Virus record (IMG/VR): IMGVR_UViG_3300037504_000213
Location: 12,274-76,273 of that record
DNA: 64,000 nt
Origin: a virus
Strand: one strand, 5' to 3'
A model generated the notes under the pieces. It ran no database searches, was not told where the DNA came from, and worked only from the letters and a program-made list of their open reading frames with translations. Numbering within the stretch: the first letter of the stretch is position 1; every line of letters begins with the position of its first letter. The position numbers and the translations under genes are program-made. Below are positions 3,379 to 23,928 of the stretch, piece after piece.

Positions 3379-4007
3379 AAATCAATGTCCAAATCCAAGT
3401 TTTCTGTCCAATCCTTTGCCAACATGCCTGAAAAATCCTTGGCCAATGACACAAAAACATTATCTTCAGCAATATCGTCTTTAAATGGATAGGCATAAAC
3501 GCCTCTCTCTTTAATCTTTCTCCATATCGGAAACGCTGGCAAGCTCCTTGCGTCAGCCCATAACATAATGGGCGTCCAAGGCAGGTTTGGTATTGGATCA
3601 GTCCCGAACTCAAGGTTGGCGGCTGCCAGAAACTCTTTCCCGCCAGAATTGTAATAATACAAGTCACTGTACACCGTCATGCGATTTCCATCAATAACGT
3701 ACTGCCAGCTTTTGGAAAGCTCTCCAGTGTAGTAGTGATCTTCGTTGGCAATGAAGTCTTGTATCTCGCTGATTATTGCGTCTCCAACCTTTTCAAGGAA
3801 AGACTCTGCCAATTGCTCTGGAACCATTGAGGCCACCGTGACAAGAAATTGCATCTCGTCAGTGGCCTCAATTGTCAGCAAATCTTCTTCTGATGGCAAA
3901 TCTGGTCGAAGGCTTGCTATCATTTCCTTAATCTTAGATTTTAGGTCATTTACCCAATTCTCAAGCCTGTCCGCAAGGCCAGTTATTCCATTAAACAGTT
4001 TTTGCAA
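3375..4007 (-). CDS. HK97 gp10-like neck/tail completion protein
   Basis: TGELSKSW...LEFGT...P..PI..W...I...G..AYPF motif order; synteny. Confidence 0.6.
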   Translation of the reverse strand: MQKLFNGITGLADRLENWVNDLKSKIKEMIASLRPDLPSEEDLLTIEATDEMQFLVTVASMVPEQLAESFLEKVGDAIISEIQDFIANEDHYYTGELSKSWQYVIDGNRMTVYSDLYYYNSGGKEFLAAANLEFGTDPIPNLPWTPIMLWADARSLPAFPIWRKIKERGVYAYPFKDDIAEDNVFVSLAKDFSGMLAKDWTENLDLDIDL

Positions 4008-5352
4008 TCTCCCTTATAAGCTGCGCAACGTTTTTTGCCCCACTGCCAGTGCCCTGATCCATTCTTCTCACAAAGTCTGCCATGTCTTTTCTGTAGTCGT
4101 ATTCACTTGTAATGTGAATACGAATAGCTTCCGCAATATCATCGACATTCATATCTACATCCATTGGGTACTGCGTGCCGTAAACCTCATCTTTGTACTC
4201 ATCAGCGTAGATGAGGGGAACGCCATCCAACACAGCTGCTTCTGTAGCAGAATTTGTGGCTGTGCACGATATGAGCAGCGACGCACTTGCAAGGACATTG
4301 CGGTATTCATCAAAGTCTGTAATAATACGAAGATCTAGCGATTTGAATGGTTCAACGTGTTCTTGCACATGAGCCTCGCTTGGGTGTGGCTTGTACACCA
4401 CAACAACTTGCTTATCTGTGCTTTCTGCAAACTTTTTTACCGCCTCGGCTATTGTAGACATCCATCTGGTCACAACGCCAAAGCCATGCTGGCCAGCGTG
4501 AGCCTGTTCTTCTGTGCCAATAACTGTGAGTACAATGGCGTCAAGGGGAAGATCAAGTACACGTCGTGCCATATCGCGTGATATGGCGTCTGCGGCTTGC
4601 CACATTTCATCAAAATGAGGGTTGCCAGTTACGATATACTGGCACTCATCGTTCCCGCGTTCTCTGTACCAATCAACATGATGCTGTCCTCCACAGCACA
4701 GGTGTGTAGCAAATGTGATGTCATGTACGTCTGGCTCATTTGGGTCAAACTGCCTGTAGTGATTGGCATGAGGGATGTGAATGACATTTTCGCCAAGATG
4801 ATTCAACATCATAGCCGTTGGTCTGGCACGTGCTGTTACATCCTCCCATGTCAAGAATCCTACAAAGTTATCAATGCGTTGCGACACCCACCAAGCTCTG
4901 AACATATCTCTTGCAGCCTCAATGACATTTCCCAAAAGAAGGGCATCTTCTGGCACATGATGTTTGGCAATTTTATCAAGAAACGTTCGGCTGGCGTCAT
5001 GTATATATTTCCCAAGTTCGACCTTGGGAAGCTCCATGTTCACCACATGGTATCCACCTCTCGTCATGTATTTGCTAATATCATCGGATATTGGCAAAAA
5101 GAAAAAGTCATCCTTCAGGTGTGGAAGCACTGGCAGTACCGTATGCCTGCCACCAACGTGAACCATAATTAATGGCTTCTCTAGTGAAATTGTGTCTTGT
5201 GAGGGCGGTTTAGTGCGAATTTTTTCATGCGCCCAAGGCAGCATTGCGTATTCCAACGCCACGTTGAGATCTACCCCGTCCACCATGCACCCCTGCCATT
5301 TAAAGGCTGTGTCGAGGGCTAAGTGGTGCAACTCACGATTCTTGTCTGTCAT
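3991..5352 (-). CDS. GT-B glycosyltransferase, sialyltransferase/capsule-polymerase-like (HP motif)
   Basis: HIPHA, VTGNPHFD, VVYKPHPSE and NSATEAA motifs of CMP-/CDP-donor GT-B transferases. Confidence 0.65.
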   Translation of the reverse strand: MTDKNRELHHLALDTAFKWQGCMVDGVDLNVALEYAMLPWAHEKIRTKPPSQDTISLEKPLIMVHVGGRHTVLPVLPHLKDDFFFLPISDDISKYMTRGGYHVVNMELPKVELGKYIHDASRTFLDKIAKHHVPEDALLLGNVIEAARDMFRAWWVSQRIDNFVGFLTWEDVTARARPTAMMLNHLGENVIHIPHANHYRQFDPNEPDVHDITFATHLCCGGQHHVDWYRERGNDECQYIVTGNPHFDEMWQAADAISRDMARRVLDLPLDAIVLTVIGTEEQAHAGQHGFGVVTRWMSTIAEAVKKFAESTDKQVVVVYKPHPSEAHVQEHVEPFKSLDLRIITDFDEYRNVLASASLLISCTATNSATEAAVLDGVPLIYADEYKDEVYGTQYPMDVDMNVDDIAEAIRIHITSEYDYRKDMADFVRRMDQGTGSGAKNVAQLIREIAKTV

Positions 5353-6754
5353 TAAACATCTCCTGGTATGTGCTTGTAGCTGGTGCAGATGGAAGCTGGC
5401 GTGTTTGCTTAACTTTCATGGCATTTACAGCAAACGCTATGTAACGATGTTGATTGGCAAATGCTGTAAGATTTTGCCTTGCATGCCTCATTGCGCCTAG
5501 CATTTTTTCCTTCTCCGCACTTAGGTTATCAATAACCTGTCTTAACTTATTATACCATGCAGATTGTGTATTTTCAACTAAATGACCAAACGAGTTTGCC
5601 ATTAGCTTGGGTGCTGCACTTGGGATGTAGCTGTCCTTATCCTGGTATGGCGCGCCGTTTGTTGCAATAAATGGTACACCAGCCATCATGTATTCCAGAA
5701 CCTTAATCCACGATCTGTGCTCATCATACGAATAGCCAAAGTCATCTATTGGTTCAAGCTCAAGTGGCGCAATACCAACGTCAAACGTAGACACAACCAG
5801 TGGCCATGTGTAGCTGTTTACATAACCCTGGTGAATAATACGATCCTTTGGTACGTTGCCAAGTGGACCATCAATAATTCTTGTGTCGCCACCGCAAATC
5901 TTAATCATAACATTGTCTGTCTCTTCAATTATTTGCTCAAGCGCTGGCACAATGTTGCTCAGATAAAAGCTGTCAAGGTGACCAGAGCTTCCACCCCATC
6001 CAATGATGATCTGGCGTTCGCTTCCATCTCTTTCAGCTACATCAAATCGTCTTTGATCTGCCAAATGAGACACTGCATTAACGAATGATCTTGCTGGCAT
6101 ATTGCCCCACGATGGAAGATAGGCAGATATGTTGTCCTGCATAAGCTGGTGCATCACATCTGCATCTATTGGCCTATTGTGCGGTTCGAACATAACGTCT
6201 GGCGCGCCGATTTGTTTTTGTCTAACGGTTCTATATGATCGCGGGTCTGCAAAGTTTGGAAGATGAAATACTGGCAGTGTTGCATCAAATCTCTTCCAAG
6301 ATTCCAACAAAACCTTCGATGGTGAAACGACACCGTCGCTGTGATTTACGACACCTTCTATTAGACCTTCAACAGTGTCGTACGGCAATCCAGATCTGCC
6401 CTTGACCCAGTACTGGTGCGCTGGGTTAATCGGCGGCAGGGCAGTGTAGTGATCATCCAAATCTACCAAGACAACCTGCCCGCGCAGCCTAAAACGATCC
6501 ATTGCCTCCATAATGGATTTATCAAAGACGTTTCTTTCCATAATGATAATATCGGCAGTTCCGATCAGCCTGTCAACTTCTGGGTCTCTCCAACGCGCTG
6601 CCGAGTTTAGGTGAATAACCTGAGCTTCAAGGATGTTGCCACCACCAGTTATGTTTATGCTGTCTGCTGGTGTTCTGGATCTCCACTGAGAGACATTGGC
6701 GTTTCTAATATCATCAGCATACAAAAACATTAACTTCAACTTGTTCTCTTGCAT
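5333..6754 (-). CDS. GT4-like glycosyltransferase
   Basis: VDLDD, IGWGGSSGH, FDVGIAPL, SWIKVLEYMMAGVPFIAT motifs; GGAGG SD. Confidence 0.8.
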   Translation of the reverse strand: MQENKLKLMFLYADDIRNANVSQWRSRTPADSINITGGGNILEAQVIHLNSAARWRDPEVDRLIGTADIIIMERNVFDKSIMEAMDRFRLRGQVVLVDLDDHYTALPPINPAHQYWVKGRSGLPYDTVEGLIEGVVNHSDGVVSPSKVLLESWKRFDATLPVFHLPNFADPRSYRTVRQKQIGAPDVMFEPHNRPIDADVMHQLMQDNISAYLPSWGNMPARSFVNAVSHLADQRRFDVAERDGSERQIIIGWGGSSGHLDSFYLSNIVPALEQIIEETDNVMIKICGGDTRIIDGPLGNVPKDRIIHQGYVNSYTWPLVVSTFDVGIAPLELEPIDDFGYSYDEHRSWIKVLEYMMAGVPFIATNGAPYQDKDSYIPSAAPKLMANSFGHLVENTQSAWYNKLRQVIDNLSAEKEKMLGAMRHARQNLTAFANQHRYIAFAVNAMKVKQTRQLPSAPATSTYQEMFNDRQES

Positions 6755-6771: not shown

Positions 6772-6813
6772 TAAGTCCGACCTAATTATAGATCGGACTT
6801 AATATTATGTCAA
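6772..6813 (-). promoter_or_regulatory. Consensus sigma70 promoter overlapped by a hairpin (terminator/operator)
   Basis: Minus strand TTGACA (6813-6808)-17 bp-TATAAT (6790-6785); inverted repeat TAAGTCCGA..TCGGACTTA at 6772-6801 spans the -10. Confidence 0.75.
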
Positions 6814-7336: not shown

Positions 7337-8323
7337 CTAAGCTAAGCAGTCCGATACGAGGAGTCCAGCCTCAGAGCTAACGACCACTTCGTCAACAAAG
7401 TGCTCGGCAACCATCTTGGTAAAGCCTTCCTCGTCATATCTGAATTCCTTGATTTGTCTTGGAACGCCGATATAGTCTGGAACCCATTCTACAATCGCAC
7501 CAGCTGTTGGATTCATGAACGCTGGAGCGGCATCAACGTAACCCCACCAACAGTAATCGCCATCCCATATATCTGACATTGACGATTCCTCGCCCTGATC
7601 AGATGTGTCATAGATGGCTGTACCGATAAGGATTCTTTCCATCTCCCACATAGCCTGAAGAAGCTGCACGGTGACCATAGCTGGTTGGCCGTTGGTCGCA
7701 CCACCTTCTACACGAGCAAGCATATCTGGATGATTCCTGAGAGCCTGCCACGTCTTGGCACCCATAACAACAGTGTTTGGATACACGCCCATCTGTGTTC
7801 TGAACGTTTCTCTAATATCAAGGCCACCCTTGATAACCTCAGCAGTGTCGTCATTAAACTGAGCGCCAAAGATGTTTGTCGCAGTATCAGAGTTGCTGCT
7901 CCAATTGCCACTCGTGTTAACCATGTCGGCAACACGCTTTTCCATGCTCAGGAACAGTGCGTCCATCGCCAATTCCATAGTTGTGGTTCGTATCAGCGGT
8001 CTAGCGGCATCATCTGCGATGTCAAGCGTGTGATCCAGCAATCTTTCACCGTGAGAATAGTTCTCACAATTATATGTCCCTGGATCCCCCATACCCCACG
8101 TCGATGTGGAGTACTTGGTGCCTGGAGCATGAGCAGTCGCCTTCAGTCTAAATCTGTCGTTCTTCTGTAACTTTCTGAACTGACCAGACTGCTGATCGGA
8201 TCTGAACATTGGGAAAATGAGTTCGGCAATGTACTGCATGTTGGAGTAGCCCGTAGCCAGCTGGCTAAGGACACGGTTAATTGCATTGATTTGATTCTTA
8301 CCTAAAGTTGGATTATAAGCCAT
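7337..8323 (-). CDS. Major capsid protein
   Basis: 328 aa; YIAELIFP, PNTVVMG...WQALRNHP, DIW motifs of lambda gpE-like HK97-fold capsids; GGAGG SD. Confidence 0.85.
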   Translation of the reverse strand: MAYNPTLGKNQINAINRVLSQLATGYSNMQYIAELIFPMFRSDQQSGQFRKLQKNDRFRLKATAHAPGTKYSTSTWGMGDPGTYNCENYSHGERLLDHTLDIADDAARPLIRTTTMELAMDALFLSMEKRVADMVNTSGNWSSNSDTATNIFGAQFNDDTAEVIKGGLDIRETFRTQMGVYPNTVVMGAKTWQALRNHPDMLARVEGGATNGQPAMVTVQLLQAMWEMERILIGTAIYDTSDQGEESSMSDIWDGDYCWWGYVDAAPAFMNPTAGAIVEWVPDYIGVPRQIKEFRYDEEGFTKMVAEHFVDEVVVSSEAGLLVSDCLA

Positions 8324-8334: not shown

Positions 8335-8772
8335 CTAGCTCGCAATGCCGTCGCCAGCATCAGTATCAAAGTGTGGCGGCAAAATGAGACCAGTACCCAA
8401 CTTTGAACCACTTGTAAATGTTGGCCCAAGGTAACGACCGTATCTCGAAGACGCGCCAGAGGCCGCAACAACAGCGCCATTTGTGTGAACAGTAAACCAA
8501 TCACCAGTGCTAAGACCATTGCTTGCTCTGACAATTGCCTCACCCATATAAACAAGTCTTACGAATTCACCAGGGCACGAAGAAAGGTTAAACTGTGACG
8601 GAAGCACTCCAAGTGCCGTTGGGTTGCTGGCACCAGTAGCCTTGGCGACATATGGAATTTCGTCATTTCTTGTCGCACTCCCGTTAGGGGCGAAAAAATA
8701 GCCCATATCAGAAGCATACAAAGCGTTTGAAGCACAAACCCCAATTGTAGCCTGCCATCCTTCAGTAGGCAT
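8335..8772 (-). CDS. Head decoration/cement protein
   Basis: 145 aa, Gly/Ala-rich (LGVL..GE.V..V.MG...VRA...L.TGD), between protease and capsid. Confidence 0.6.
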   Translation of the reverse strand: MPTEGWQATIGVCASNALYASDMGYFFAPNGSATRNDEIPYVAKATGASNPTALGVLPSQFNLSSCPGEFVRLVYMGEAIVRASNGLSTGDWFTVHTNGAVVAASGASSRYGRYLGPTFTSGSKLGTGLILPPHFDTDAGDGIAS

Positions 8773-14827: not shown

Positions 14828-15998
14828 ATGTCCCCTCAAGATATTCAGCGCCAGCACGGGCGGCCATATCTGCCTCAATAACATTGTTGGCAACTACTAT
14901 CACACTTCCAAGCCTATCGCCGTGGCTTTTAACACCATCAAACTTATCGCCAACCTTCTTATATTTGACCTCCATAACGCCAACCGCGCTATTCGTTGAC
15001 GGCATTGGCATTTCATCGTAACATACGGATGGCTCTGGGCCACGTACAATAGTTCCGTTTTTAGGAAAGCCGTAGCGTTGCGAAAACCACTTGCCATTCC
15101 ATGACACATTACCAGAAACATCGTGATCCATGTCAAGGGCGTGCATTATCGCGTGCCCCACAATGTCCATTCCTGGAAACACGGCGTCAAATATATCTGA
15201 CGCCAAGTAGCCGCCACTTAGCCTTGGTGCTATCTCAAGCACATAGATGTTTTCTCCGTCATATATGGTGTCAAGTTTTAATGCGGCTCCCTCTTCTACG
15301 CCGAAGACGTCAGCAACCTCATCAAAAGCCAATTTGTTTATAAGGTAAAGATCGCTGTTGATAACAGGACCAATACAGCCGTCCTCTACTGGATGTGTGC
15401 CAAAGGTTTTGTCGTAATTTCTCATTGCGACACCAATTAGCGGAGAACCAACGACACCCTCCACACTAAACTGCTTTCCTTTTATTTCCTCGGAGACAAT
15501 AATGCTTCTAAGTATCTGTACATTTTTTGCACCCCTGCTTTTATTAGCTGTATATATATAAAAATTACCATGCTTCTTGGGCGGGGACAAGAAACTAACA
15601 TAACCAGCCTTTTGCAATCCAGACAGGGTGCTATAAAGCCCCATTTTGTCAACACTCAGTATCGCAAGTTCTTCTGGAACAGCGGCTTTGCAAGACAACG
15701 ATAGTGCAACTTGACATTGTACATCAGCGGCATCGGTTGCCGCGCACATTACACCATCAACCTCCAACCCGTCAATCAGTTGCTTGTAATACAATTCTCT
15801 GATAATTTCGTCTGCGTCATAGCATGAAGCCTTTACAAAAACATCAGCCTCTTGGACACAAAACGCATTTGGGTCCATGTCAATTGCCACTATGCGACAG
15901 CCAAGCTCCCGTGCACGATTATAGATGCTGGCAGCCTCTATGCCAGCACCCAACATCGCAATTGTCATCCCATTAGCAGCACCACGATCAACCTTCAT
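14814..15998 (-). CDS. ATP-grasp ligase
   Basis: LGAG, IVAIDMDPNA, EEIKGKQFSVE, VLEIAPRLSGG; start uncertain (15968-16049). Confidence 0.75.
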   Translation of the reverse strand: MKVDRGAANGMTIAMLGAGIEAASIYNRARELGCRIVAIDMDPNAFCVQEADVFVKASCYDADEIIRELYYKQLIDGLEVDGVMCAATDAADVQCQVALSLSCKAAVPEELAILSVDKMGLYSTLSGLQKAGYVSFLSPPKKHGNFYIYTANKSRGAKNVQILRSIIVSEEIKGKQFSVEGVVGSPLIGVAMRNYDKTFGTHPVEDGCIGPVINSDLYLINKLAFDEVADVFGVEEGAALKLDTIYDGENIYVLEIAPRLSGGYLASDIFDAVFPGMDIVGHAIMHALDMDHDVSGNVSWNGKWFSQRYGFPKNGTIVRGPEPSVCYDEMPMPSTNSAVGVMEVKYKKVGDKFDGVKSHGDRLGSVIVVANNVIEADMAARAGAEYLEGTYEFE

Positions 15999-16272
15999 CT
16001 GTGCCATCCTCACTCGCATCTCTGGGCGTACGGTCAGATTGTTCCTCAATTCTTAATATCTTAACGACACCAGACCGCCTACAATATCTGGTAGCCTCTG
16101 GCTTTCCATCATCATTTTTAGAAATATCGTATGTCATTGAACCCATTACTTCATGGGCGTGTTGCTTTAGCCACACCTCTGGATCTGTAGCAACAATACC
16201 ATCTTGGTATACCTCATTCTTTACCTCACCACCCAACGATGGGTCGATTTCGATATGTCTAGCAATATACAT
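15988..16272 (-). CDS. Hypothetical protein
   Basis: Fits the operon, GGAG SD. Confidence 0.5.
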   Translation of the reverse strand: MYIARHIEIDPSLGGEVKNEVYQDGIVATDPEVWLKQHAHEVMGSMTYDISKNDDGKPEATRYCRRSGVVKILRIEEQSDRTPRDASEDGTDEG

Positions 16273-16372: not shown

Positions 16373-16666
16373 TCAATCACTACATTGCTCACAAGGACAC
16401 TTCTCTTCTGTTGTCTGCGTCTGTCCACCAGCTTTACCTCTGTCAACATGCGTACTCCGTGCACAATATTCTCGTATATTGACAGTCTTATCATCTTTAC
16501 TCCCAAGCGTATTCATGCCAACGTTATTTATGGCTTCGCACACAGCATCCCATACAGACATTGGATCTATGAACGTGTTTGCACTAATACTGTGCGTTCC
16601 ACCCCTAGTGCCCATTGCGAATTCACAGACAACACCTTCTTCATCGACCTGTATAAAAATTTCCAT
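16373..16666 (-). CDS. Hypothetical protein
   Basis: Abuts the upstream gene, SD-like AAGGA. Confidence 0.45.
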   Translation of the reverse strand: MEIFIQVDEEGVVCEFAMGTRGGTHSISANTFIDPMSVWDAVCEAINNVGMNTLGSKDDKTVNIREYCARSTHVDRGKAGGQTQTTEEKCPCEQCSD

Positions 16667-17863
16667 TTATCCTTTATCCTTTATCCAAAGTTGAATTGCA
16701 TCTAACGGCAGTTTGCTTTGCATCGCATAATCCATCTTTACATAGTGTTCTCCTCTCGTAACAGCCCAAACCATGTCAACTGGAAGGCCGTGATCCCCAA
16801 CGAAGCCTACAAACTGCTGTGGTGTTTGCCAATTTTGCTTGTGTGATGGCATAACTGGCACACCCCACGGAAATTGCTTCTCCAAAGGGACCTCAAGAAT
16901 TAAAAGCCCACTTTCGCCTAGCATCGTCCATAGGTGCCATAGCGCAACCTCTGGCTCATCAAGATGTTCAAGCGTGTGGCACGACACAATGAGATCAAAG
17001 CCACCATGTGACTTTTTGTTGATAAGTGCATCTGGCAACGTGTTCCTTTCCATATCCCAATACACAAGGTGATTGCCCTCACTTCTACAATGAGAAAAAT
17101 CAATATCAGCACCAACAACTTCACGCGCATATTTGTTCATTGCATTTGTGCCACTTCCCGTGCCACAGGCTGCATCAAGTGCAAGATCAAACCAGTCAAC
17201 GTCATAGTGCTCAGACGCCAGCTTCAAGAACTTATTATATTTACCGTAATTTCCAAGGTCGTGCCTCTCAAACCAGCTTGGCTTATTTCTAATCTCCTGT
17301 ACTGACATTATATCGCCGTATTCCCTTGGATAGCACGGCGCTGATTTGAACTCATCATCATGATGCAGTATATAGTTCCACGGCCTCATTTTCACGGAGC
17401 TTTCGTGTTCATGTGACGCAAGTTTCTGAACCGCCTCGCGTGAAAGTACGTCAGCACCAGCGTTCACGTTCCAGCTATGTGGAAGATGAACGTAGTCTAG
17501 GTCTTTATCAACAAGGAGTTTTATCTGCTGAGCAATAACTTCCTGAGACGAGTAAAACCTTGGAAAAATAGTTCTGACAATAACATCGTAATTGCATGAT
17601 TCTGCGAAAACCCTCATTTGACCAACAAGATCTTTGTTTGGTAAAAAGTGGCGGCTTGCTATATCCCATATATTGCCGAGATAATCGAAGATGCTATTTT
17701 CTGGACCAAAGTCACTGCAAATCGTCATACCCCAAGAATTGTCAAATGCTCCTGGTGCCCAGTTTGACTTGTCAAGAACATCAAGCCAACTCATGTCATC
17801 AACAATGTCTGTATGGTGGGCCTGAATAAAAACACCTATCTTCTTACCCTTGTACGAACGCAT
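16667..17863 (-). CDS. Degenerate SpsF-like domain fused to a class I SAM methyltransferase
   Basis: N-terminal GVFIQAH...DVIVR...DLDYV; C-terminal LDAACGTGSG, FDLIVSCHTLEHL, GLLILEVP. Confidence 0.75.
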   Translation of the reverse strand: MRSYKGKKIGVFIQAHHTDIVDDMSWLDVLDKSNWAPGAFDNSWGMTICSDFGPENSIFDYLGNIWDIASRHFLPNKDLVGQMRVFAESCNYDVIVRTIFPRFYSSQEVIAQQIKLLVDKDLDYVHLPHSWNVNAGADVLSREAVQKLASHEHESSVKMRPWNYILHHDDEFKSAPCYPREYGDIMSVQEIRNKPSWFERHDLGNYGKYNKFLKLASEHYDVDWFDLALDAACGTGSGTNAMNKYAREVVGADIDFSHCRSEGNHLVYWDMERNTLPDALINKKSHGGFDLIVSCHTLEHLDEPEVALWHLWTMLGESGLLILEVPLEKQFPWGVPVMPSHKQNWQTPQQFVGFVGDHGLPVDMVWAVTRGEHYVKMDYAMQSKLPLDAIQLWIKDKG

Positions 17864-18626
17864 TGACCTTCTCCTCAATTTTGTCTGCAATCCTGCACGC
17901 AGCGTCACTCCTGACAACCCTTTCTGGTCTATTGTACATTAATCTGTCAATTACGTCGGCCAAGTCTTCCCATCGCATATCTTCGTTTACAAAAAACACC
18001 TCTTGTGCAACACCACGCTCTAACATTAACATGGCATCATCCATTCTTTTCTGATCCACCGCCAGCAACACAACTGGCTTTCTCATGGCGTTGGCCTCAT
18101 AGGCAATGCGCCCTGGCGCAGTCAAAACGACTGCACTGTGACCAACGACATTATACCACGCTTGATGCGGAATCTCAACGACATTTTTAGGTATCTCGTA
18201 ATCCTGTTGCACAAGATTACCCCTCCCAAGCATAAACTTCATGGTAGGCCAATTCGTTGCAAGTTCGGCAAGAACGCTGTTACCAAGATCATCAACATCA
18301 GAGGAACCAAACGCAACTGCCACATAACCATCAGACCTTGTGTTCTGAAACCACTTCTTATCAACCACAACGTCCTGCACGCTATCAACAAGCTCGCTAT
18401 AATATATCGTTAGCGGAAGAAAGTATCTTCCGTCGGCCTTCCACCAGTCATACACGACAGCATCTGTATCGTGATCTGGGGTAAAGACCTGATCCACGTT
18501 TAGCCTGTAGAGCCATGCGTCATGGCCCCTATTTCTCATCTCTTGAACGATAGGTTCACACCTTGCCGCATGACCGCCACCACAGCAAGTGTCATATGAA
18601 ACAACAAAATCCACTTTCATAACCAA
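17844..18626 (-). CDS. PseG/SpsG-like nucleotide-sugar hydrolase (GT28 fold)
   Basis: GGGHAARC, VAFGSSD, APGRIAYEA correspond to PseG GxGHxxRC, FGGSD, AGGSTxYE. Confidence 0.7.
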   Translation of the reverse strand: MVMKVDFVVSYDTCCGGGHAARCEPIVQEMRNRGHDAWLYRLNVDQVFTPDHDTDAVVYDWWKADGRYFLPLTIYYSELVDSVQDVVVDKKWFQNTRSDGYVAVAFGSSDVDDLGNSVLAELATNWPTMKFMLGRGNLVQQDYEIPKNVVEIPHQAWYNVVGHSAVVLTAPGRIAYEANAMRKPVVLLAVDQKRMDDAMLMLERGVAQEVFFVNEDMRWEDLADVIDRLMYNRPERVVRSDAACRIADKIEEKVNAFVQG

Positions 18627-19258
18627 TATCCTTCTCTATATGGATTTAGGGCCGAAACATCATCTCTTTTTGTAGGACCAATAAATGGCATGTCCATTAT
18701 ATCAAAAAAATTTATCTCTGTAAATAGAGCTTTATGAGGACTTCTCGACACGACATCATTAGTGGCCCTTTCCCTTATGACCAGTTCTCTGACGCCCCAA
18801 TAATTTTTTACATTTCTTGGCCCAACACGCCAGTCGTCGTTCAAGCAGCCGCCGTACATTCTATTAGATATAAGTGTCCTCCAAAATTCATTGGAAGACG
18901 ACAGTCTAAGCCTTGCGCCTCCCCACCCAACCTGAGACGGGGGAGTAACAATCTTAACCTTAACGCCATCAATTTTTGTTCTTACTATCTGCCCCTTTCT
19001 CATTACCTTTCGCTTGTAGTCAAGTTCAAATTCAGCCTCTATGCCAGCGTCTTGCACAGCACCCCTTATATGTGCCCAGGTGTAAGAGGTAAAAGGCTTG
19101 AGGTGCCCGTAAGGAAGTCCAAGTGCGGTAACAGCCATAACGTTTTCATGTAACATATAGACATCACCGCACGGAACCAACTTGGCGTAAACGCTCTTAA
19201 ACAACACTTTGACTTCTTCAAATATCCTTTTGCCCTCTTCAAGAGTTACGCATTTCAT
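18617..19258 (-). CDS. Minimal DNA polymerase X-like protein, degenerate active site
   Basis: WGGARLRLSSSNEF and TEINFFDIMDMPFIGPTKR match the PolX WG..LL..TGS..F and E..IF..LG..YI.P..R motifs; GS.RR and DxD are not conserved. Confidence 0.6.
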   Translation of the reverse strand: MKCVTLEEGKRIFEEVKVLFKSVYAKLVPCGDVYMLHENVMAVTALGLPYGHLKPFTSYTWAHIRGAVQDAGIEAEFELDYKRKVMRKGQIVRTKIDGVKVKIVTPPSQVGWGGARLRLSSSNEFWRTLISNRMYGGCLNDDWRVGPRNVKNYWGVRELVIRERATNDVVSRSPHKALFTEINFFDIMDMPFIGPTKRDDVSALNPYREGYWL

Positions 19259-20405
19259 TTAACACCTCTACTGCTTCTTTCGCCAACGATATGGCATCTT
19301 CCTTGGTGTGTATAAGTGTTGCAAAGTTTGGACGCCACACTAGATGCCCGCGCCGTAGCAATTCCATACTAAACTTTTTCATAACACTGTCTGGCACATC
19401 AAACCATGTTCGCGTTGGGTTGTTTCCAACAATGCGATAAGAAATATAGTTTTCGTTCGCAAGGCCATTGAACGTTGACATAAGTGTATCACCAACACTG
19501 TAAATGTGATCGTAAAGCTCTGGGTGATCTCTATAATACTTCAAGTTTAACTGTGCCGCCCGTAAACCACGCGGGTGTCCAAAATATGTCCTACTGAAAT
19601 GAACATGTTTCCCGTGAAAGGGTGAGAGCATTAACATTACATCTTTGTTGCCAACAACAGCACTAATGGGTTCGTCACCGCCAAGCGCCTTACCATAACA
19701 GGCCAAATCTGGTATGACACCATAATGCTCAGTCGCACCGCCAATCCCGTAACGGAACCCAGTCACCACCTCGTCAAAGATTAACAATGCTCCGAGCTTG
19801 TCGCACACTTCTCTGCATTGTGTCAAAAATTCTTTGTATTCCTTATATGGCATTTTGCCATCGTCTTCAACAATAATAGCGGCTACTGAACCAGCCATTT
19901 TTGTATTTCTTAGCCACTGCAAAGAGTGTTTATCCAGCTTCAGTATATTGTTGTTTTTATTGAACTGCGCTTGAGTTCCATACTTTGAGTCTGCCCAGAG
20001 AAAAGATGAGCCATGATAGCCATAGGAATAAACATTCTCTCTGTTGGTATAAGCTATGGCCAGCTTCACAGCCATTTCTGTTGCATCACCTCCACTTAGG
20101 GCAAAACGCGCCATGTGATCCTGCGTGTTTGCCCAAGGCAACACCTCTATCAAAAGCCTTGCGACGCGACTTTCTAGCGGTGAACGAAACGAACCGCATG
20201 GATTGGCCTCTACGCCACCCCAGTAGTTATATCCAAGCAATGGGCCGTATTGACCCATAACCCAACTTGTACACGGATATTCAGAACCGTCACTTGCAAT
20301 CACAGTTTCGTGTACACCTTCACAAATTAACGTCTCGCCATCTAATGGGCGATACTTTAGCGTCCTGCTGTCTAACGACGCACCGCCTGGAACGAGATTA
20401 TCCAT
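19239..20405 (-). CDS. Class III PLP aminotransferase (GSA aminomutase-like)
   Basis: GPLLGY, SGGDATEMAVKLA, GYHG, LIFDEVVTGFR, PDLACYGKALGG. Confidence 0.85.
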   Translation of the reverse strand: MDNLVPGGASLDSRTLKYRPLDGETLICEGVHETVIASDGSEYPCTSWVMGQYGPLLGYNYWGGVEANPCGSFRSPLESRVARLLIEVLPWANTQDHMARFALSGGDATEMAVKLAIAYTNRENVYSYGYHGSSFLWADSKYGTQAQFNKNNNILKLDKHSLQWLRNTKMAGSVAAIIVEDDGKMPYKEYKEFLTQCREVCDKLGALLIFDEVVTGFRYGIGGATEHYGVIPDLACYGKALGGDEPISAVVGNKDVMLMLSPFHGKHVHFSRTYFGHPRGLRAAQLNLKYYRDHPELYDHIYSVGDTLMSTFNGLANENYISYRIVGNNPTRTWFDVPDSVMKKFSMELLRRGHLVWRPNFATLIHTKEDAISLAKEAVEVLNEMRNS

Positions 20406-20730
20406 CTGTTACCTCCACATACCCCAAACTTTCTATAGCGTTGGCAATCGCAAGATCAACAGCACTGTCCAAAACAACTTCTAATTTGGCAACATAATCA
20501 TAGTCCATTGATGATGCAGCCATAATTGATATGCAACCATCACATGTCTTGACAAAAACCCGATACCGCTTTTCGTCAGGGCAAAATGGCCGTGGGTCAC
20601 CGCCTATGATATAACTCTCACCTATTGGCTTAAAGCTACCAGATGTCCATTCGCCAAAAGTAACCTTCTGGGCTAACCAATCAGTAGAATCACAGCGGAT
20701 AAGACCATCAGCTTTTATTTCTTTTCCCAT
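20398..20730 (-). CDS. Hypothetical protein
   Basis: Overlaps both neighbours in the operon. Confidence 0.5.
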   Translation of the reverse strand: MGKEIKADGLIRCDSTDWLAQKVTFGEWTSGSFKPIGESYIIGGDPRPFCPDEKRYRVFVKTCDGCISIMAASSMDYDYVAKLEVVLDSAVDLAIANAIESLGYVEVTDG

Positions 20731-21830: not shown

Positions 21831-22014
21831 ATCCTGGCTTCATCCTTTTATTTGGCACATCTGACATATCGTCGTTTTCCCAGATCTTGACACACGCAAC
21901 CTCATCAGATTCTTTCATCCTCTGAATGCCTAATGCGTCAAGCGCCTTCCAGCTGCGCCACTTTTTCTGAAATGTACATATGCCGTTCCAGTCATATACC
22001 TTCATGATAGCCAT
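21820..22014 (-). CDS. Hypothetical protein
   Basis: Small ORF filling the operon gap exactly. Confidence 0.45.
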   Translation of the reverse strand: MAIMKVYDWNGICTFQKKWRSWKALDALGIQRMKESDEVACVKIWENDDMSDVPNKRMKPGYAH

Positions 22015-22943
22015 TAAAGCACGCCCCTAACAGCACGAAGTGGTCGCTTTTCGTCAAGCGGATCAGCACGCCAATAAACCTCGTCTCTTTCACATTCTTG
22101 CGGAAACTTATAGCCATCGCCAAGGCGTTCGTCTCTCTGACTTTCAAATTCATTGTCTGGCGTCATATTAATAATGTTTCTAGCGTCTCTTGAATACCCA
22201 TAGGGGTCATCCAAAAAATAAGAATGCCCATTTTCATTCCCAATACTATCTAAATCGAAATGAACCTCTATAACCTCGGCACCAAGATTCACGGCCTGTA
22301 TTACAACGTTGACGTTTGCAGTATGGTCGCTATAGCCAATTGCAACTCCAGGAAACGCTCTTTTTAGTGCCTCAATGGCAAGAAGATTAACTTGATCCTC
22401 TGGCGTTGTATAGGCAGACACACAATGCAATATTGACAACTTGCCATCAGGTAAATCAAGTGCCCCACCCAAAGACAGGGAGGACATAATCTCTGGCATT
22501 GTGGCGGCCCCAGTAGACACAATGATGCCCTTTACCCCAGAGTTTTCAGACGACACAATCTTAGTGGCTTTTCGCATCATTTTATAGTTCAACAGTTCAT
22601 AGCTGCCAAACTTGATGTAATCAATGCTTTGTCCAGCAGACCACTTCATTTGACTTATTCTATCAAGATTATTTGTATTCAGTGTAGTAACAATGTAGTC
22701 CATCCCAAGCTCATGTGTGTATTCGCAAAGCATTGGATGCCAACTGTTTGGCGTAAATGGATAATACGGATTAGACTTGTACTTCTCAACTGCATATCTT
22801 TCACAGTAGACGTCTTCCCACTTAGAAAGCATTTGGGTTTTCACTGCGTCAAACCCAACATCCTTGACAGCCTCAATTAGCTCAAGCGCCCTGTGAATGT
22901 CACCATTGTGATTACTGCATAACTCAGCGATATAGTATGTCAT
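22014..22943 (-). CDS. neuB: NeuB/PseI-family nonulosonic acid synthase
   Basis: IAELCSNHNGD, DAVKTQ, KFGSYE, VSTGAAT, LHCVSAY, GYSDHT, IEVHF; start MTYYIAE; C-terminal SAF/AFP domain apparently absent. Confidence 0.9.
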   Translation of the reverse strand: MTYYIAELCSNHNGDIHRALELIEAVKDVGFDAVKTQMLSKWEDVYCERYAVEKYKSNPYYPFTPNSWHPMLCEYTHELGMDYIVTTLNTNNLDRISQMKWSAGQSIDYIKFGSYELLNYKMMRKATKIVSSENSGVKGIIVSTGAATMPEIMSSLSLGGALDLPDGKLSILHCVSAYTTPEDQVNLLAIEALKRAFPGVAIGYSDHTANVNVVIQAVNLGAEVIEVHFDLDSIGNENGHSYFLDDPYGYSRDARNIINMTPDNEFESQRDERLGDGYKFPQECERDEVYWRADPLDEKRPLRAVRGVL

Positions 22944-22947
22944 TGGC

Positions 22948-23928
22948 CTAGCCTTCCCTCCCGAACATTGCGATATGATCATTATACACCTCATCAACCA
23001 TTTTTTCAAGTGGAATGCCAAACATCGCGGCGTCTTCAGAAGAACGCATGGCCACATGTGGTAAATCTGTTTCCTCGCTCCCACATTTATAGATAGCGAT
23101 TATCTCGTTTACCAACTCAAGCACCTTGACCTCCCTTTGGTTAATCAGGCTTTCATGTTGTTTTTCCTCTTGGCCAAGGCCAATCCATCTCACACCACCT
23201 AACACATTCAGTGTTGCCAAGTCACCAGAAACCATTTTGAATAACACCTCTGCAAGCGCAGTTATAGAAGAAGCATTCATACAACGAACATACAGGCCAC
23301 TGTCCATCTCAAGGACATTGTCTATAAAAGTTACTGCTTCTCTGAACGTCATCCAATACCTAGTTACTATAGGTAGGGGGCCAACTATCGTTAGAAGTTG
23401 ACTTGCATTAATTTGATCAATCCATTTCCAGAAAACACTTCCTCTGCTACCAAGGACATTCCCATACCTTATAACTTGCGAGCACAAGCCTTTATTTGCC
23501 AATACCAGTCGCTCTGCAACAGCCTTTTGCATTCCATATATATTTACTGGTTCCACAGCCTTGTCGCTACTAATTTGCAGGAACTTCCCAATATCAGCGG
23601 CAACAGCAGCATAGCTAGCATTAGCAGCGCCAGTTGCATTTACAGAATGCGAATAATATGGATTGCGGTTACATGCACCAACAGATTTAACTGCGGCTGC
23701 ATTTACTACAGCATCAATATCGTGCTCCTTGAATATTCTTGTCAGTTCATCCGTGTCCCGAATATCACAAGCATGAAATTTGGGTAATTTGGGATAATTT
23801 TGTGATAAAGACTGAATTTCGTCAAACTTATGCCAGTCCCTTGCACACCCAGCCACAATCTCATGCCTGGAAAACATCATCATTGCTCTGCCCAAGGTAC
23901 CAGTGATGCCAGTAACAAAAATTCTCAT
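22948..23928 (-). CDS. PseB/CapD-like UDP-GlcNAc 4,6-dehydratase
   Basis: TGITGTLG, AAVKSV, ISSDKAVEPVNIYGMQK, RYGNVLGSRGSV. Confidence 0.88.
   Translation of the reverse strand: MRIFVTGITGTLGRAMMMFSRHEIVAGCARDWHKFDEIQSLSQNYPKLPKFHACDIRDTDELTRIFKEHDIDAVVNAAAVKSVGACNRNPYYSHSVNATGAANASYAAVAADIGKFLQISSDKAVEPVNIYGMQKAVAERLVLANKGLCSQVIRYGNVLGSRGSVFWKWIDQINASQLLTIVGPLPIVTRYWMTFREAVTFIDNVLEMDSGLYVRCMNASSITALAEVLFKMVSGDLATLNVLGGVRWIGLGQEEKQHESLINQREVKVLELVNEIIAIYKCGSEETDLPHVAMRSSEDAAMFGIPLEKMVDEVYNDHIAMFGREG

What the first reader, a model, noticed from the sequence alone, without database searches (positions are those of the whole stretch)
3991..23928. Phage-encoded nonulosonic-acid pathway linked to glycosyltransferases inside the virion module
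Seen: 13.8-23.9 kb encodes PseB-like dehydratase, NeuB/PseI synthase, two class III aminotransferases, PseG-like hydrolase, SpsF-methyltransferase, ATP-grasp ligase and SpsF-like cytidylyltransferase. All read in the same direction into terminase and head genes. Two GT-B transferases sit between the head-tail adaptor and neck genes, one with the KPHP motif of CMP-nonulosonate transferases. Established: PseB-PseG-PseI-PseF is the backbone of CMP-pseudaminic/legionaminic acid synthesis, and some actinobacteriophages glycosylate their virions using structural-region GTs. I see no PseC/DegT aminotransferase and no PseH acetyltransferase. Inference: the phage makes an unusually decorated sialic-acid-like sugar and attaches it to capsid or tail. 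Host-surface conversion or DNA modification are alternatives.
Basis: partly seen in the sequence, partly recalled or inferred. Interest (0 to 1): 0.85.

Follow-up and report, generated by a model that had tools for sequence, protein, structure and literature searches.

The report
Phage-made sialic-like sugar and transferases
An uncultured tailed phage, and a whole clade of its relatives, carries its own pathway for a sialic-acid-like nine-carbon sugar plus a fixed pair of sugar-transferring enzymes wedged between its head and tail genes, which most likely coat the virus particle with that sugar, something not yet described for any phage.

Summary
Window 13.8-23.9 kb (minus strand) encodes a PseB-like dehydratase, a NeuB synthase of the SAF-less subfamily, two class III aminotransferases, a PseG-like protein, a methyltransferase with a degenerate SpsF-like N-domain, an ATP-grasp ligase and an SpsF/PseF-like cytidylyltransferase. 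These run into terminase, portal and capsid genes. No DegT, GNAT or Maf gene is present in the 76-kb record.

Two GT-B genes follow the adaptor-like gene. 5333-6754 is GT4-like. 3991-5352 belongs to a rare, metagenome-only TagF/epimerase-like family with a conserved KxHP motif.

New here:
- The order adaptor-GT-GT is fixed in about 40 uncultured phage contigs.
- 15 of 18 contigs with the 3991-type gene also carry NeuB; the three exceptions are fragments. None of 7 contigs with only the 5333-type gene carries NeuB.
- The sugar cassette changes position between genomes, and uses either a class III or a DegT aminotransferase, never both.
- Fifteen bacteria with the homologous sugar cluster (Shewanella Sfm-type flagellin glycan) lack the 3991 family.

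Best reading (about 0.5): a CMP-activated, acylated and methylated pseudaminic-like sugar is put on virion proteins. The acceptor, and the transferase role of 3991-5352, are inferred.

The parts
22948..23928 (-). PseB/CapE-like UDP-GlcNAc 4,6-dehydratase (SDR), first gene of the cassette
   Evidence: Polysacc_synt_2 165 bits; PseB TIGR03589 129 bits, FnlA 102 bits; nearest solved structures CapE, FnlA and FlaA1
23949..23996 (-). Promoter-like sites just upstream of the cassette, between the SSB gene and pseB
   Evidence: TTGACA-17-TAAGAT with TG, 10/12; the upstream gene 24585-24977 is SSB (phrog_44, 128 bits). Consensus match only
22014..22943 (-). NeuB-family nonulosonate synthase, SAF-less subfamily (309 aa; the open frame extends to 23084)
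   Evidence: PF03102 124 bits; 309-aa gene call, with nearest relatives of 285-310 aa that lack PF08666; residues equivalent to E25, K53, Q55, K129, H215, E234 and H236 of N. meningitidis NeuB are invariant in the subfamily (mapped with PMC8208679)
20715..21830 (-). Class III (GSA-aminomutase-like) aminotransferase 1
   Evidence: Aminotran_3 63 bits; NF000818 131 bits; PLP lysine motif YGKAWG
20398..20730 (-). 110-aa ORF of unknown function inside the cassette
   Evidence: No Pfam or PHROG match and no relative in the fetched loci
19239..20405 (-). Class III aminotransferase 2, the copy shared with related phages and some bacterial clusters
   Evidence: Aminotran_3 93 bits; 97-135-bit homologues next to NeuB in viral loci L004, L005, L013, L026 and others
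18617..19258 (-). Mini Pol-beta/Pol X-like nucleotidyltransferase-fold protein; role in the pathway unclear
   Evidence: ESM Atlas feature score 0.96 and TM 0.66-0.71 to viral DNA_pol_B_thumb clusters; no Pfam or PHROG hit
17844..18626 (-). PseG-like nucleotide-sugar hydrolase (short GT-B/GT28-type)
   Evidence: PseG TIGR03590 E 2e-3; Atlas structure TM 0.79-0.85 to Glyco_tran_28_C/PseG clusters and PseF-PseG fusions, feature score 0.95; no sequence relative found
16667..17917 (-). SAM-dependent methyltransferase (residues 247-348) with a degenerate SpsF-like N-domain
   Evidence: Methyltransf_23/11/12; 45-53-bit matches to methyltransferases in bacterial NeuB clusters; N-domain residues 93-180 weakly similar to the CTP_transf_3 core but without P-loop or DCP
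14814..16049 (-). ATP-grasp carboxylate-amine ligase (L-amino-acid-ligase type)
   Evidence: LAL_C2 25 bits, ATP-grasp_3; 60-91-bit homologues in 44 bacterial NeuB loci; the Rhizomicrobium homologue scores LAL_C2 69 bits; equivalent of SfmE (PMC3765264)
13778..14893 (-). SpsF/PseF-type cytidylyltransferase (residues about 24-300) with an extra C-terminal region of about 90 aa
   Evidence: CTP_transf_3 and KdsB hits, weak; 32% identity over residues 24-302 to the G004 homologue; P-loop and DCP motif kept; homologues sit directly upstream of TerL in L173, L181 and L185
11186..12871 (-). Large terminase
   Evidence: phrog_2, 85 bits
9796..11193 (-). Mu-like portal
   Evidence: Portal_Mu 114 bits; phrog_113 177 bits
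8335..8772 (-). 145-aa Ser/Gly/Ala-rich head protein (scaffold or decoration); candidate acceptor, as a lead only
   Evidence: phrog_673 E 4.5e-4; 7 Ala-Ser dipeptides against 1.8 expected; 37 homologues in clade loci
7337..8323 (-). Major capsid protein
   Evidence: phrog_1005, 187 bits
6824..7330 (-). Adaptor-like 168-aa gene that always precedes the GT pair
   Evidence: phrog_195 head-tail adaptor E 3.5e-3; in every family locus with enough sequence the GT pair follows it
6772..6813 (-). Perfect sigma-70 consensus promoter overlapping a 13-bp hairpin in the 69-nt gap before the GT pair
   Evidence: TTGACA-17-TATAAT, 12/12, at 6813-6785; hairpin at 6801-6772 followed by TTTGATT. Consensus match only
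5333..6754 (-). GT4-like (retaining type) GT-B glycosyltransferase
   Evidence: Glyco_trans_1_4 weak; phrog_7162; model pLDDT 83.8; VIA Z 25.9 BshA (rmsd 3.5, 337 aligned) and 25.3 PimA; family of 65 proteins, nearly all unnamed metagenome sequences
3991..5352 (-). TagF/epimerase-like GT-B protein with KxHP motif; proposed CMP-nonulosonate transferase (database gene call 3991-5286, 431 aa)
   Evidence: Glyphos_transf E 7e-4; 48 of 71 family members hit Glyphos_transf and 26 of 71 hit Epimerase_2; model pLDDT 86.7; VIA Z 21.8 NeuC, 20.1 TarL, 19.8 TagF; co-occurs with NeuB
3375..4007 (-). Conserved 210-aa gene that follows the GT pair (neck or tail-completion position)
   Evidence: 21 homologues directly after the pair in clade loci
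2409..2858 (-). Major tail (tube) protein
   Evidence: phrog_1407 and phrog_10528

Best explanation
Proposed mechanism. The phage makes its own CMP-activated nonulosonic acid of the pseudaminic type during infection and uses two late-module glycosyltransferases to put a short glycan carrying that sugar on one or more virion proteins.

Proposed steps:
1. The PseB-like dehydratase acts on host UDP-GlcNAc.
2. A class III aminotransferase, standing in for PseC, adds the 4-amino group.
3. The ATP-grasp ligase, standing in for the PseH acetyltransferase, N-acylates that amine with a carboxylic or amino acid. The methyltransferase methylates the product.
4. The PseG-like enzyme removes UDP.
5. The SAF-less NeuB condenses the hexose with PEP.
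6. The SpsF/PseF-like enzyme makes the CMP-sugar.
7. The GT4-like enzyme (5333-6754) attaches a priming hexose or HexNAc from a UDP/GDP-sugar. The TagF-like KxHP enzyme (3991-5352) then transfers the nonulosonate from its CMP donor.

Shown: gene identities, clade-wide synteny, and co-occurrence of the 3991 family with NeuB.

Inferred: the order of steps, the acyl group, the second aminotransferase's role, the transferase activity of 3991-5352, and the virion as acceptor.
For: (1) Pathway genes identified.

(2) The SAF-less NeuB keeps the catalytic and metal residues (PMC8208679).

(3) Bacterial homologues of NeuB, the ATP-grasp, the methyltransferase and the cytidylyltransferase sit together with PseB and PseC.
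- Seen in Marinobacter, Rhizomicrobium, Shewanella and many MAGs.
- This matches the Shewanella sfmABCDE operon, whose product is a 274-Da nonulosonate carrying a methylated 236-Da moiety O-linked to flagellin serines (PMC3765264).

(4) Aminotransferase type in related phages.
- NeuB-bearing contigs carry either a class III aminotransferase (10, next to NeuB where I compared the coordinates) or DegT (5).
- None carries both. This fits a functional replacement of PseC.

(5) The order adaptor-like gene, GT5333, GT3991, g3375, tail tube is conserved.
- It holds in about 40 IMG/VR contigs at 25-40% protein identity.
- The NulO cassette moves: upstream of terminase, after the tail genes, on the opposite strand, or 20-57 kb away.

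(6) Co-occurrence with NeuB.
- 15 of 18 contigs with a GT3991-family gene have NeuB. The 3 without are 34-40% complete.
- 0 of 7 contigs with only a GT5333-like gene have NeuB, and 4 of these are at least 92% complete.
- Fisher p = 2.5e-4, not corrected for shared ancestry.

(7) The GT3991 family is absent from 15 bacterial genomes that have the homologous sugar cluster. It is therefore not needed to make the sugar.

(8) Genetically validated Pse/Leg transferases of Tannerella are TagB/GT-B proteins with an HP motif (PMC5420450). GT3991 is in the same superfamily and has the same motif.

(9) The GT genes are tightly packed with the head and tail genes.

(10) No thymidylate-synthase-like gene is present that would point to DNA hypermodification.
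Against: - No glycan, acceptor or enzyme activity has been observed. Everything is from sequence.
- The GT3991 fold ties with hydrolysing UDP-GlcNAc 2-epimerases: NeuC Z 21.8, TarL 20.1, TagF 19.8. The sequence profile also ties: 5.8e-6 against 8.6e-6.
- The pathway scores are well below the equivalog cut-offs. The PseG and cytidylyltransferase assignments rest on weak or indirect evidence.
- No N-acetyltransferase was found.
- A perfect sigma-70 promoter directly upstream of the GT pair could mean expression apart from the late genes.
- Every detected clade member has the GT pair, so co-occurrence with NeuB is confounded with ancestry.
- The record is about 65% complete.
Confidence: 0.5

Rival explanations
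1. Host-surface conversion. The pathway and the GT pair remodel a host structure during infection (flagellin, pilin, S-layer, LPS or capsule). The purpose could be to block superinfection or to keep progeny from being trapped on cell debris. The virion is not the target.
For: - The closest cellular systems are flagellin and surface-glycan pathways (PMC3765264).
- Phage-borne enzymes that alter host nonulosonate capsules are known (PMC12053666, PMC6586298).
- A consensus sigma-70 promoter in front of the GT pair would allow expression by host RNA polymerase independently of late genes.
- TagF-like enzymes normally act on envelope polymers.
Against: - The GT pair keeps one fixed slot between adaptor-like and tail genes in about 40 contigs. 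That is unusual for host-conversion morons, which usually sit near lysogeny genes or genome ends.
- I came across no lysogeny gene, but I did not run a dedicated search (for example for an integrase family), and only some ORFs of the window were scanned. The phage carries 6 tRNAs.
- No Maf or FlmG-type flagellin transferase is present.
- The GT3991 family is absent from bacteria with the same sugar cluster.
Confidence: 0.2
2. 3991-5352 is a biosynthetic enzyme, not a transferase. It would be a NeuC/LegG-like nucleotide-sugar hydrolase or 2-epimerase of the nonulosonate pathway. In that case only 5333-6754, or a host enzyme, transfers sugar.
For: - The top structural match is NeuC 5zlr (Z 21.8, rmsd 4.5, 333 aligned), followed by other UDP-GlcNAc 2-epimerases at about 20.6.
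- 26 of 71 family members hit Pfam Epimerase_2.
- The profile aligns end to end with Bacillus UDP-GlcNAc 2-epimerase, and HxD aligns with HGD.
- Strict co-occurrence with NeuB fits a pathway enzyme just as well.
Against: - The epimerase catalytic Glu of HVEAG is replaced: the family has HVPHA. The PEEMNR region is replaced by DIHD.
- No family member reached the Epimerase_2 cut-off in 19 contigs.
- A PseB-type pathway needs PseG, which is already present, not NeuC.
- The gene is never inside the sugar cassette. It is always next to the GT4-like gene in the structural module, even when the cassette lies 20-57 kb away.
- 15 bacteria with the homologous sugar cluster lack it.
- More members hit TagF-type Glyphos_transf (48 of 71).
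Confidence: 0.15
3. DNA hypermodification. The sugar is attached to phage DNA bases to evade restriction, as with glucosyl- or arabinosyl-hydroxymethylcytosine.
For: - Phage GT-B enzymes do glycosylate DNA. T4 alpha- and beta-glucosyltransferases appear among the structural matches of 5333-6754 at Z 20.5 and 16.9.
- The cassette begins next to the replication module (SSB).
Against: - No thymidylate-synthase-like hydroxymethylase in the record.
- The GT pair sits inside the head-tail module, not with replication genes.
- I know of no nonulosonate-modified DNA (own knowledge).
- The better matches of 5333-6754 are GT4 enzymes that act on small-molecule or lipid acceptors (Z 25-26).
Confidence: 0.03

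Closest known systems
Virion glycosylation in mycobacteriophages (Che8, Rita and others; Freeman et al. 2023, read only through its citations in PMC11256854 and PMC12619734)
   Same: Phage-encoded glycosyltransferases modify capsid and tail-tube subunits, producing a glycan shield. This is the only described case of tailed-phage virion glycosylation that I could find.
   Different: [quoted passage not shown]
- Here the GT pair is inside the head-tail module. A 10-kb pathway for a nonulosonate is encoded by the phage. The GT families are different and have no match in isolate phages.
- The primary paper was not available.
Shewanella oneidensis sfmABCDE / PseB-PseC flagellin modification (PMC3765264) and the homologous clusters in Marinobacter and Rhizomicrobium
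   Same: - SAF-less PseI-like synthase, SAM methyltransferase, ATP-grasp ligase, PseB, and a PseF(-PseG) cytidylyltransferase.
- The product there is a 274-Da nonulosonate with a methylated 236-Da substituent, O-linked to serine.
   Different: - The cellular clusters add transketolase-like and SDR genes, mostly use DegT/PseC, and have TPR-type candidate transferases.
- The phage uses class III aminotransferases (two copies) and has none of the TK/SDR genes.
- It pairs the pathway with phage-specific GTs that are absent from these bacteria.
Tannerella forsythia Pse/Leg-derivative transferases Tanf_01245 and TFUB4_00887 (PMC5420450)
   Same: TagB/GT-B superfamily proteins with an HP motif that use CMP-nonulosonates to cap a protein O-glycan. 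This is the same superfamily and motif as 3991-5352.
   Different: The D/E-D/E-G motif was not checked. The phage family is a separate, metagenome-only group.
Autonomous glycosylation of giant viruses (chloroviruses, Mimiviridae; PMC9614988, PMC4691112)
   Same: The virus encodes both the nucleotide-sugar pathways and the glycosyltransferases that decorate capsid or fibril proteins, independently of the host.
   Different: These are eukaryotic viruses with other sugars. The 2022 review contains no mention of nonulosonic, pseudaminic, legionaminic or neuraminic acids.
Prophage-borne nonulosonate-modifying genes of Acinetobacter baumannii (epaA/epaB; O-acetyltransferases; PMC12053666, PMC6586298)
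   Same: Phage-carried enzymes that act on pseudaminic or legionaminic acids.
   Different: They only tailor the host's capsule sugar in lysogens. They are not a full pathway and have no link to virion genes.

Membership tests
CMP-pseudaminic acid pathway (PseB-C-H-G-I-F) | PseB: inverting UDP-GlcNAc 4,6-dehydratase of the Polysacc_synt_2 family | tested here: met
   Polysacc_synt_2 165 bits. PseB TIGR03589 is the best NCBIfam hit at 129 bits, below the 408-bit equivalog cut-off, so this is family-level membership only.
CMP-pseudaminic acid pathway (PseB-C-H-G-I-F) | PseC: DegT/DnrJ-type aminotransferase | tested here: not met
   No PF01041 match in the 76-kb record. Two class III aminotransferases are present instead. 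In relatives, class III and DegT are mutually exclusive.
CMP-pseudaminic acid pathway (PseB-C-H-G-I-F) | PseH: GNAT N-acetyltransferase | tested here: not met
   No PF00583 match in the record and no Hexapep hit in the cassette ORFs. An ATP-grasp ligase is the only candidate N-acylating enzyme.
CMP-pseudaminic acid pathway (PseB-C-H-G-I-F) | PseG: GT28-type UDP-sugar hydrolase | tested here: inconclusive
   TIGR03590 E 2e-3, 17.7 bits. Atlas structure TM 0.79-0.85 to PseG-type clusters. No sequence relatives.
CMP-pseudaminic acid pathway (PseB-C-H-G-I-F) | PseI: NeuB-family PEP-condensing synthase with metal and catalytic residues | tested here: met
   PF03102 124 bits; the subfamily keeps the E25, K53, K129, H215, E234 and H236 equivalents. 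The score is below the PseI and NeuB equivalog cut-offs, so the exact sugar is not assigned.
CMP-pseudaminic acid pathway (PseB-C-H-G-I-F) | PseF: CTP_transf_3 cytidylyltransferase | tested here: inconclusive
   Pfam 19 bits against a cut-off of 22.6. It aligns over about 280 residues with homologues whose bacterial counterparts score CTP_transf_3 113 bits. P-loop and DCP motif are present.
Canonical NeuB/sialic acid synthase (two-domain) | C-terminal SAF (antifreeze-like) domain contributing Arg314 to the active site | tested here: not met
   The 309-aa protein has no PF08666. Its nearest relatives also lack it and share a different conserved tail, WRAxPxDxxRP.
TagB/TagF-like and bacterial sialyltransferase-like GT-B enzymes (CMP/CDP-linked donors) | GT-B fold with a conserved HP motif in the C-terminal domain | tested here: met
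   Model pLDDT 86.7. TarL Z 20.1 (rmsd 4.4, 325 aligned) and TagF Z 19.8. KxHP is conserved in at least 90% of the family and aligns with the conserved His of the TagF-like Cps3D.
TagB/TagF-like and bacterial sialyltransferase-like GT-B enzymes (CMP/CDP-linked donors) | Pfam Glyphos_transf membership above the curated cut-off | tested here: inconclusive
   The window protein scores 19.1 bits against a cut-off of 22.1. 48 of 71 family members match, with a best E of 5e-11.
TagB/TagF-like and bacterial sialyltransferase-like GT-B enzymes (CMP/CDP-linked donors) | Transfer from a CMP-nonulosonate donor | not testable with these tools
   Needs an enzyme assay. Indirect support comes from co-occurrence with NeuB.
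UDP-GlcNAc 2-epimerase / NeuC (Epimerase_2) | Catalytic acid residues D95, E117 (HVEAG) and E131 | tested here: not met
   In the profile alignment to the Bacillus enzyme, HxD aligns with HGD. However, HVEAG is HVPHA and PEEMNR is DIHD in the family. No member reaches the Pfam cut-off.
GT4-type retaining GT-B glycosyltransferases (for 5333-6754) | GT-B fold closest to GT4 enzymes; Glycos_transf_1-type C-domain | tested here: met
   VIA Z 25.9 BshA, 25.3 PimA and sucrose-phosphate synthase. Glyco_trans_1_4 23.5 bits (below cut-off) and phrog_7162 E 5e-10.
Phage virion glycosylation systems | Glycan covalently attached to capsid or tail proteins | not testable with these tools
   Only gene position and synteny are available.

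The most novel reading that the evidence does not exclude
A widespread clade of uncultured aquatic or sediment phages 'sialylates' its own virions. A phage-encoded pathway makes an acylated, methylated pseudaminic-like sugar. A previously unrecognised, phage-specific family of CMP-nonulosonate transferases (the 3991-5352 family) caps a glycan on head or neck proteins with it. This would be the first nonulosonic acid on any virus particle made with virus-encoded enzymes. It would also define a new nonulosonate transferase family, and a class III aminotransferase/ATP-grasp route that bypasses PseC and PseH.
Probability: 0.4. Interest if true: 0.85.

Novelty: new variant of a known kind. Interest (0 to 1): 0.72.

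Why it matters
Virion glycosylation in tailed phages has so far been shown only for some mycobacteriophages. Virus-encoded sugar pathways coupled to capsid decoration are otherwise a hallmark of giant eukaryotic viruses.

If this phage clade builds a sialic-acid-like sugar and puts it on its particles, three things follow:
- The sugar repertoire of the virosphere would include nonulosonic acids.
- Nonulosonate transferases are scarce and poorly defined. The 3991 family would be a new, testable one.
- A non-canonical route would be exposed, with a class III aminotransferase and an ATP-grasp ligase in place of PseC and PseH. That route also exists in bacterial flagellin-glycan clusters whose chemistry is unsolved.

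A negatively charged, host-like sugar coat could change adsorption, aggregation, grazing or recognition of phage particles. It would also be relevant to engineering phage surfaces.

Tried and rejected
- Near-identical DNA in GenBank phages: none.
- tblastn of NeuB, GT5333 and GT3991 against 50,697 phage records: 3 records, 3 weak partial records and 0 records. No cultured relative carries the system.
- Single-protein scans of IMG/VR with NeuB and GT3991 found nothing. Alignment-based scans were needed.
I therefore could not read the genomic context of the best NeuB, GT5333 or GT3991 database hits directly. I used the search for related loci and the genome search instead.
- Homologue search for the PseG-like protein found only itself. 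Local iterative searches found no relatives for 17844-18626, 18617-19258, 20398-20730, 16373-16666, 15988-16272, 13333-13842 or 12843-13385.
- Foldseek against the PDB for GT3991 gave only generic GT-B hits led by epimerases. The VIA search could not separate the epimerase and TagF classes.
- A within-clade control (relatives with the adaptor-like gene but without the GT pair) could not be built. Every locus found through that gene has the pair.
- BLASTP of the methyltransferase N-domain against the cytidylyltransferase: no similarity. 'SpsF-methyltransferase' is therefore kept only as a weak, degenerate resemblance.
- DNA-modification reading: no ThyA-like gene.
- Maf-type flagellin transferase: none.
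- Freeman et al. 2023 could not be read.
- Literature searches for phage or virus nonulosonate pathways found nothing relevant.

Full report
**What the record is.** The window is bases 12274-76273 of a 76,273-bp linear IMG/VR virus record that CheckV estimates to be 65% complete. Everything between 1 and about 42 kb is read on the minus strand. There are six tRNA genes at 27.3-29.3 kb. No near-identical DNA exists among 50,697 GenBank phage records. The major capsid protein is only about 25% identical to those of any isolate. This is therefore a deeply uncultured tailed phage.

**Checking the observation: the cassette.** Reading the minus strand from 23928 downward, the cassette contains these genes.
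- A PseB/CapE-like SDR: Polysacc_synt_2 165 bits; PseB is the best NCBIfam hit.
- A NeuB-family synthase: 124 bits.
- Two class III aminotransferases closest to glutamate-1-semialdehyde aminomutase, both with the PLP lysine motif.
- Two small ORFs and a 213-aa protein. The ESM Atlas places the 213-aa protein with mini Pol-beta-like nucleotidyltransferases common in phages.
- A 260-aa protein with only a faint PseG hit (E 2e-3). Its Atlas structure matches PseG-type Glyco_tran_28_C clusters and PseF-PseG and PseG-PseH fusions at TM 0.79-0.85.
- A 416-aa protein with a clear C-terminal SAM methyltransferase.
- An ATP-grasp ligase of the L-amino-acid-ligase type.
- A 371-aa protein with an SpsF/KdsB-like cytidylyltransferase domain.

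The cytidylyltransferase hit is below Pfam's cut-off. However, the protein aligns over residues 24-302 with homologues in related phages (32% identity). It also keeps the P-loop and the DCP motif of the family, whose bacterial members score CTP_transf_3 113 bits.

The N-terminal half of the methyltransferase protein resembles the core of that same fold only weakly. It lacks both motifs, so I regard it as degenerate.

**Checking the observation: the structural genes.** Terminase, a Mu-like portal, protease, a 145-aa Ser/Gly/Ala-rich head protein and the major capsid protein follow. Then come an adaptor-like gene, the two GT genes, two small conserved genes and the tail tube.

DegT, GNAT, Maf and thymidylate-synthase-like genes are absent from the whole record.

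**What kind of NeuB this is.** The gene call is 309 aa and has no SAF domain. Its nearest relatives (33-38% identity) are 285-310-aa proteins that also lack SAF and share a different conserved C-terminal tail. The residues that PMC8208679 lists as catalytic or metal-binding in the Neisseria enzyme are invariant in this subfamily. That paper notes SAF-less NeuB proteins only in environmental bacteria and leaves their function open.

**The cellular counterpart.** Of these, 80 were fetched. Within 10 kb of NeuB, 44 had a homologue of the phage ATP-grasp, and many had the PseB-like, cytidylyltransferase and methyltransferase homologues.
- In Marinobacter the order is PseB, DegT/PseC, SAF-less NeuB, split transketolase, SDR, two methyltransferases and the ATP-grasp, with a TPR protein alongside.
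- In Rhizomicrobium electricum NeuB is followed by a PseF-PseG fusion, with an ATP-grasp (LAL_C2 69 bits) and a TPR protein nearby.

This is the gene set of the Shewanella oneidensis sfmABCDE operon: a PseI-like SfmA, a TPP enzyme, a reductase, the methyltransferase SfmD and the ATP-grasp SfmE. That operon is required for a flagellin O-glycan made of a 274-Da nonulosonate bearing a 236-Da moiety with up to two methyl groups (PMC3765264).

The phage cassette is therefore a trimmed relative of an experimentally supported nonulosonate pathway. The ATP-grasp and methyltransferase probably decorate the sugar. This is inference by homology; the exact sugar cannot be named.

**The glycosyltransferases.** 5333-6754 models confidently (pLDDT 83.8). 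It is closest to retaining GT4 enzymes: BshA Z 25.9, PimA and sucrose-phosphate synthase 25.3. Its 65 database relatives are almost all unnamed metagenome proteins.

3991-5352 is rarer.
- Only 120 relatives were found among 1.84 billion representative proteins.
- All ten clusters I examined come from metagenomes alone, on contigs of at most 74 kb.
- The family has the conserved motifs HxD, HVPHA, DIHD, TGxPQxD, KxHP and GPSN.
- 48 of 71 members match Pfam Glyphos_transf (TagB/TagF), and 26 match Epimerase_2.
- The model (pLDDT 86.7) is a GT-B fold.
- Its best structural matches are tied: NeuC Z 21.8, other UDP-GlcNAc 2-epimerases about 20.6, TarL 20.1, TagF 19.8.
- The sequence profile also ties: the TagF-like polymerase Cps3D at 5.8e-6 and a Bacillus epimerase at 8.6e-6.

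In the epimerase alignment the catalytic HVEAG glutamate is a proline and the PEEMNR segment is DIHD. The HP histidine aligns with the phosphate-binding histidine of both classes. Fold alone therefore cannot decide between transferase and hydrolase/epimerase.

**Comparative genomics.** An alignment-based scan of IMG/VR with the GT5333 family gave 79 loci.
- In 46 of them a GT3991-family gene follows, in nearly all directly, on the same strand.
- tblastn shows the order portal, protease, capsid, adaptor-like gene, GT5333, GT3991, g3375, tail tube in about 40 contigs at 25-40% identity.
- In three contigs (L173, L181, L185) a homologue of the cytidylyltransferase sits directly upstream of terminase, as in the window.
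- A reciprocal scan with the adaptor-like gene returned essentially the same contigs. In every locus with enough sequence the GT pair follows. In one, L264, the pair is inverted.

I then searched the whole contigs for NeuB.
- Of 18 contigs with a GT3991-family gene, 15 have NeuB. The three without are 34-40% complete.
- Of 7 contigs with only a GT5333-like gene, none has NeuB, and four of these are at least 92% complete.
- Fisher's exact p is 2.5e-4. Because these contigs are related, the value overstates independence.

Against a purely historical explanation, the sugar cassette is not syntenic. It lies upstream of terminase in the window, G006 and G029. It lies after the tail genes in G004 and G007. 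It is on the opposite strand in G008 and G009. It is 20-57 kb away in G013, G016, G017, G021, G024 and G026 (positions derived).

The pathway variant also changes. Ten NeuB contigs carry a class III aminotransferase, next to NeuB where I compared the coordinates. Five carry DegT. None carries both. Two contigs lack a PseB-type gene altogether. The GT pair is kept through all of this.

Finally, 15 bacterial genomes that contain the homologous sugar cluster have no GT3991-family gene at E up to 1e-3. The family is therefore not part of sugar synthesis.

Genetically validated Pse/Leg transferases of Tannerella are TagB/GT-B proteins with an HP motif (PMC5420450). Taken together, this favours 3991-5352 as the nonulosonate transferase, at about 0.6.

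**Target of the glycan.** This is the weakest link. The fixed position between adaptor-like and tail genes and the tight gene packing suggest co-expression with structural proteins. The only known tailed-phage precedent is glycosylation of capsid and tail-tube subunits in mycobacteriophages (as cited in PMC11256854 and PMC12619734).

The 69-nt gap before the GT pair holds a 12/12 sigma-70 consensus promoter overlapping a 13-bp hairpin. Separate regulation is therefore possible. Host-surface modification remains a serious rival at about 0.2.

An earlier first-reader note in this scan (e1-6067597) pointed to Ala-Ser dipeptides in exposed virion proteins. I confirm 7 observed against 1.8 expected in the 145-aa head protein. 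This is only a lead.

**Novelty.**
- Among isolate phages, NeuB-like genes appear in 3 of 50,697 records, and the two GT families do not appear as full-length matches.
- Full-text searches found phage work only on host nonulosonates as receptors, or on prophage enzymes that tailor host capsule sugars (PMC12053666).
- A 2022 review of giant-virus glycans does not mention nonulosonic acids at all.
- The library lacks most subscription journals, so absence is not proof.
- IMG/VR holds at least 100 contigs with NeuB relatives. Viral NeuB genes as such are therefore not rare in metagenomes. The conserved coupling to a structural-module GT pair is the new element.

I classify this as a new variant of a known kind: virus-encoded virion glycosylation, with a new sugar class, a non-canonical pathway and a new candidate transferase family.

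**Limits.**
- No experiment underlies any functional claim.
- Several assignments (PseG, the cytidylyltransferase, the ATP-grasp substrate, the second aminotransferase) are weak or inferred.
- The record is incomplete and the host is unknown.

Noticed in passing
window 6772-6813 (minus strand): A perfect TTGACA-17-TATAAT promoter (12/12) overlaps a 13-bp hairpin followed by TTTGATT. It lies in the 69-nt gap between the adaptor-like gene and the first GT. It could be a terminator/promoter switch that sets GT expression apart from the capsid genes.
   Followed up: partly
window 18617-19258 (minus strand): A 213-aa protein inside the sugar cassette resembles minimal Pol-beta/Pol X palm-thumb nucleotidyltransferases that are common in phages (Atlas feature score 0.96). 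It has no obvious role in a nonulosonate pathway.
   Followed up: partly
window 13778-14083 (C-terminal ~100 aa of the cytidylyltransferase ORF) and 12843-13842: The cytidylyltransferase carries an extra C-terminal region with a faint sigma-70 region-4/HTH-like hit (E 2e-3) and a match to phrog_13787. The two small ORFs between it and TerL have no match, so the small terminase is unidentified.
   Followed up: no
G002 (IMG/VR contig of L026), L170:10851-14241: In a related phage (portal 34% identical) a strong PseB gene (Polysacc_synt_2 318 bits) and a methyltransferase sit directly after the major capsid gene. NeuB and a class III aminotransferase lie upstream of the portal. No GT5333/GT3991 pair was detected.
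   Followed up: partly
G006:C1:35187-35798 and G028:C1:24958-25563: The NeuB frames of two clade members each contain one in-frame TGA. This may be a sequencing error, a pseudogene or recoding.
   Followed up: no
Clade contigs G004-G030: Class III aminotransferase and DegT are mutually exclusive among NeuB-bearing phage contigs (10 against 5, none with both). This suggests non-orthologous displacement of PseC. The same class III type also occurs next to NeuB in some MAGs (L090, L129, L137, L138, L161).
   Followed up: partly
L226, L227, L230 (contigs of about 100 kb, two of them with terminal repeats): A second phage lineage has a GT5333-like gene directly adjacent to PseB. It also has one or two NeuB genes within 8 kb, DegT, and only distant GT3991-like genes 4-9 kb upstream. 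This is a different, compact arrangement of the same parts.
   Followed up: no
window 8335-8772 (minus strand): The 145-aa head protein between the protease and the capsid gene is Ser/Gly/Ala-rich, with 7 Ala-Ser dipeptides against 1.8 expected. Some relatives carry two copies (L216, L189).
   Followed up: partly
window 27300-29296: Six tRNA genes (Cys, Thr, Met x2, Arg-TCT, Pro) are clustered between the replication genes and the sugar cassette.
   Followed up: no
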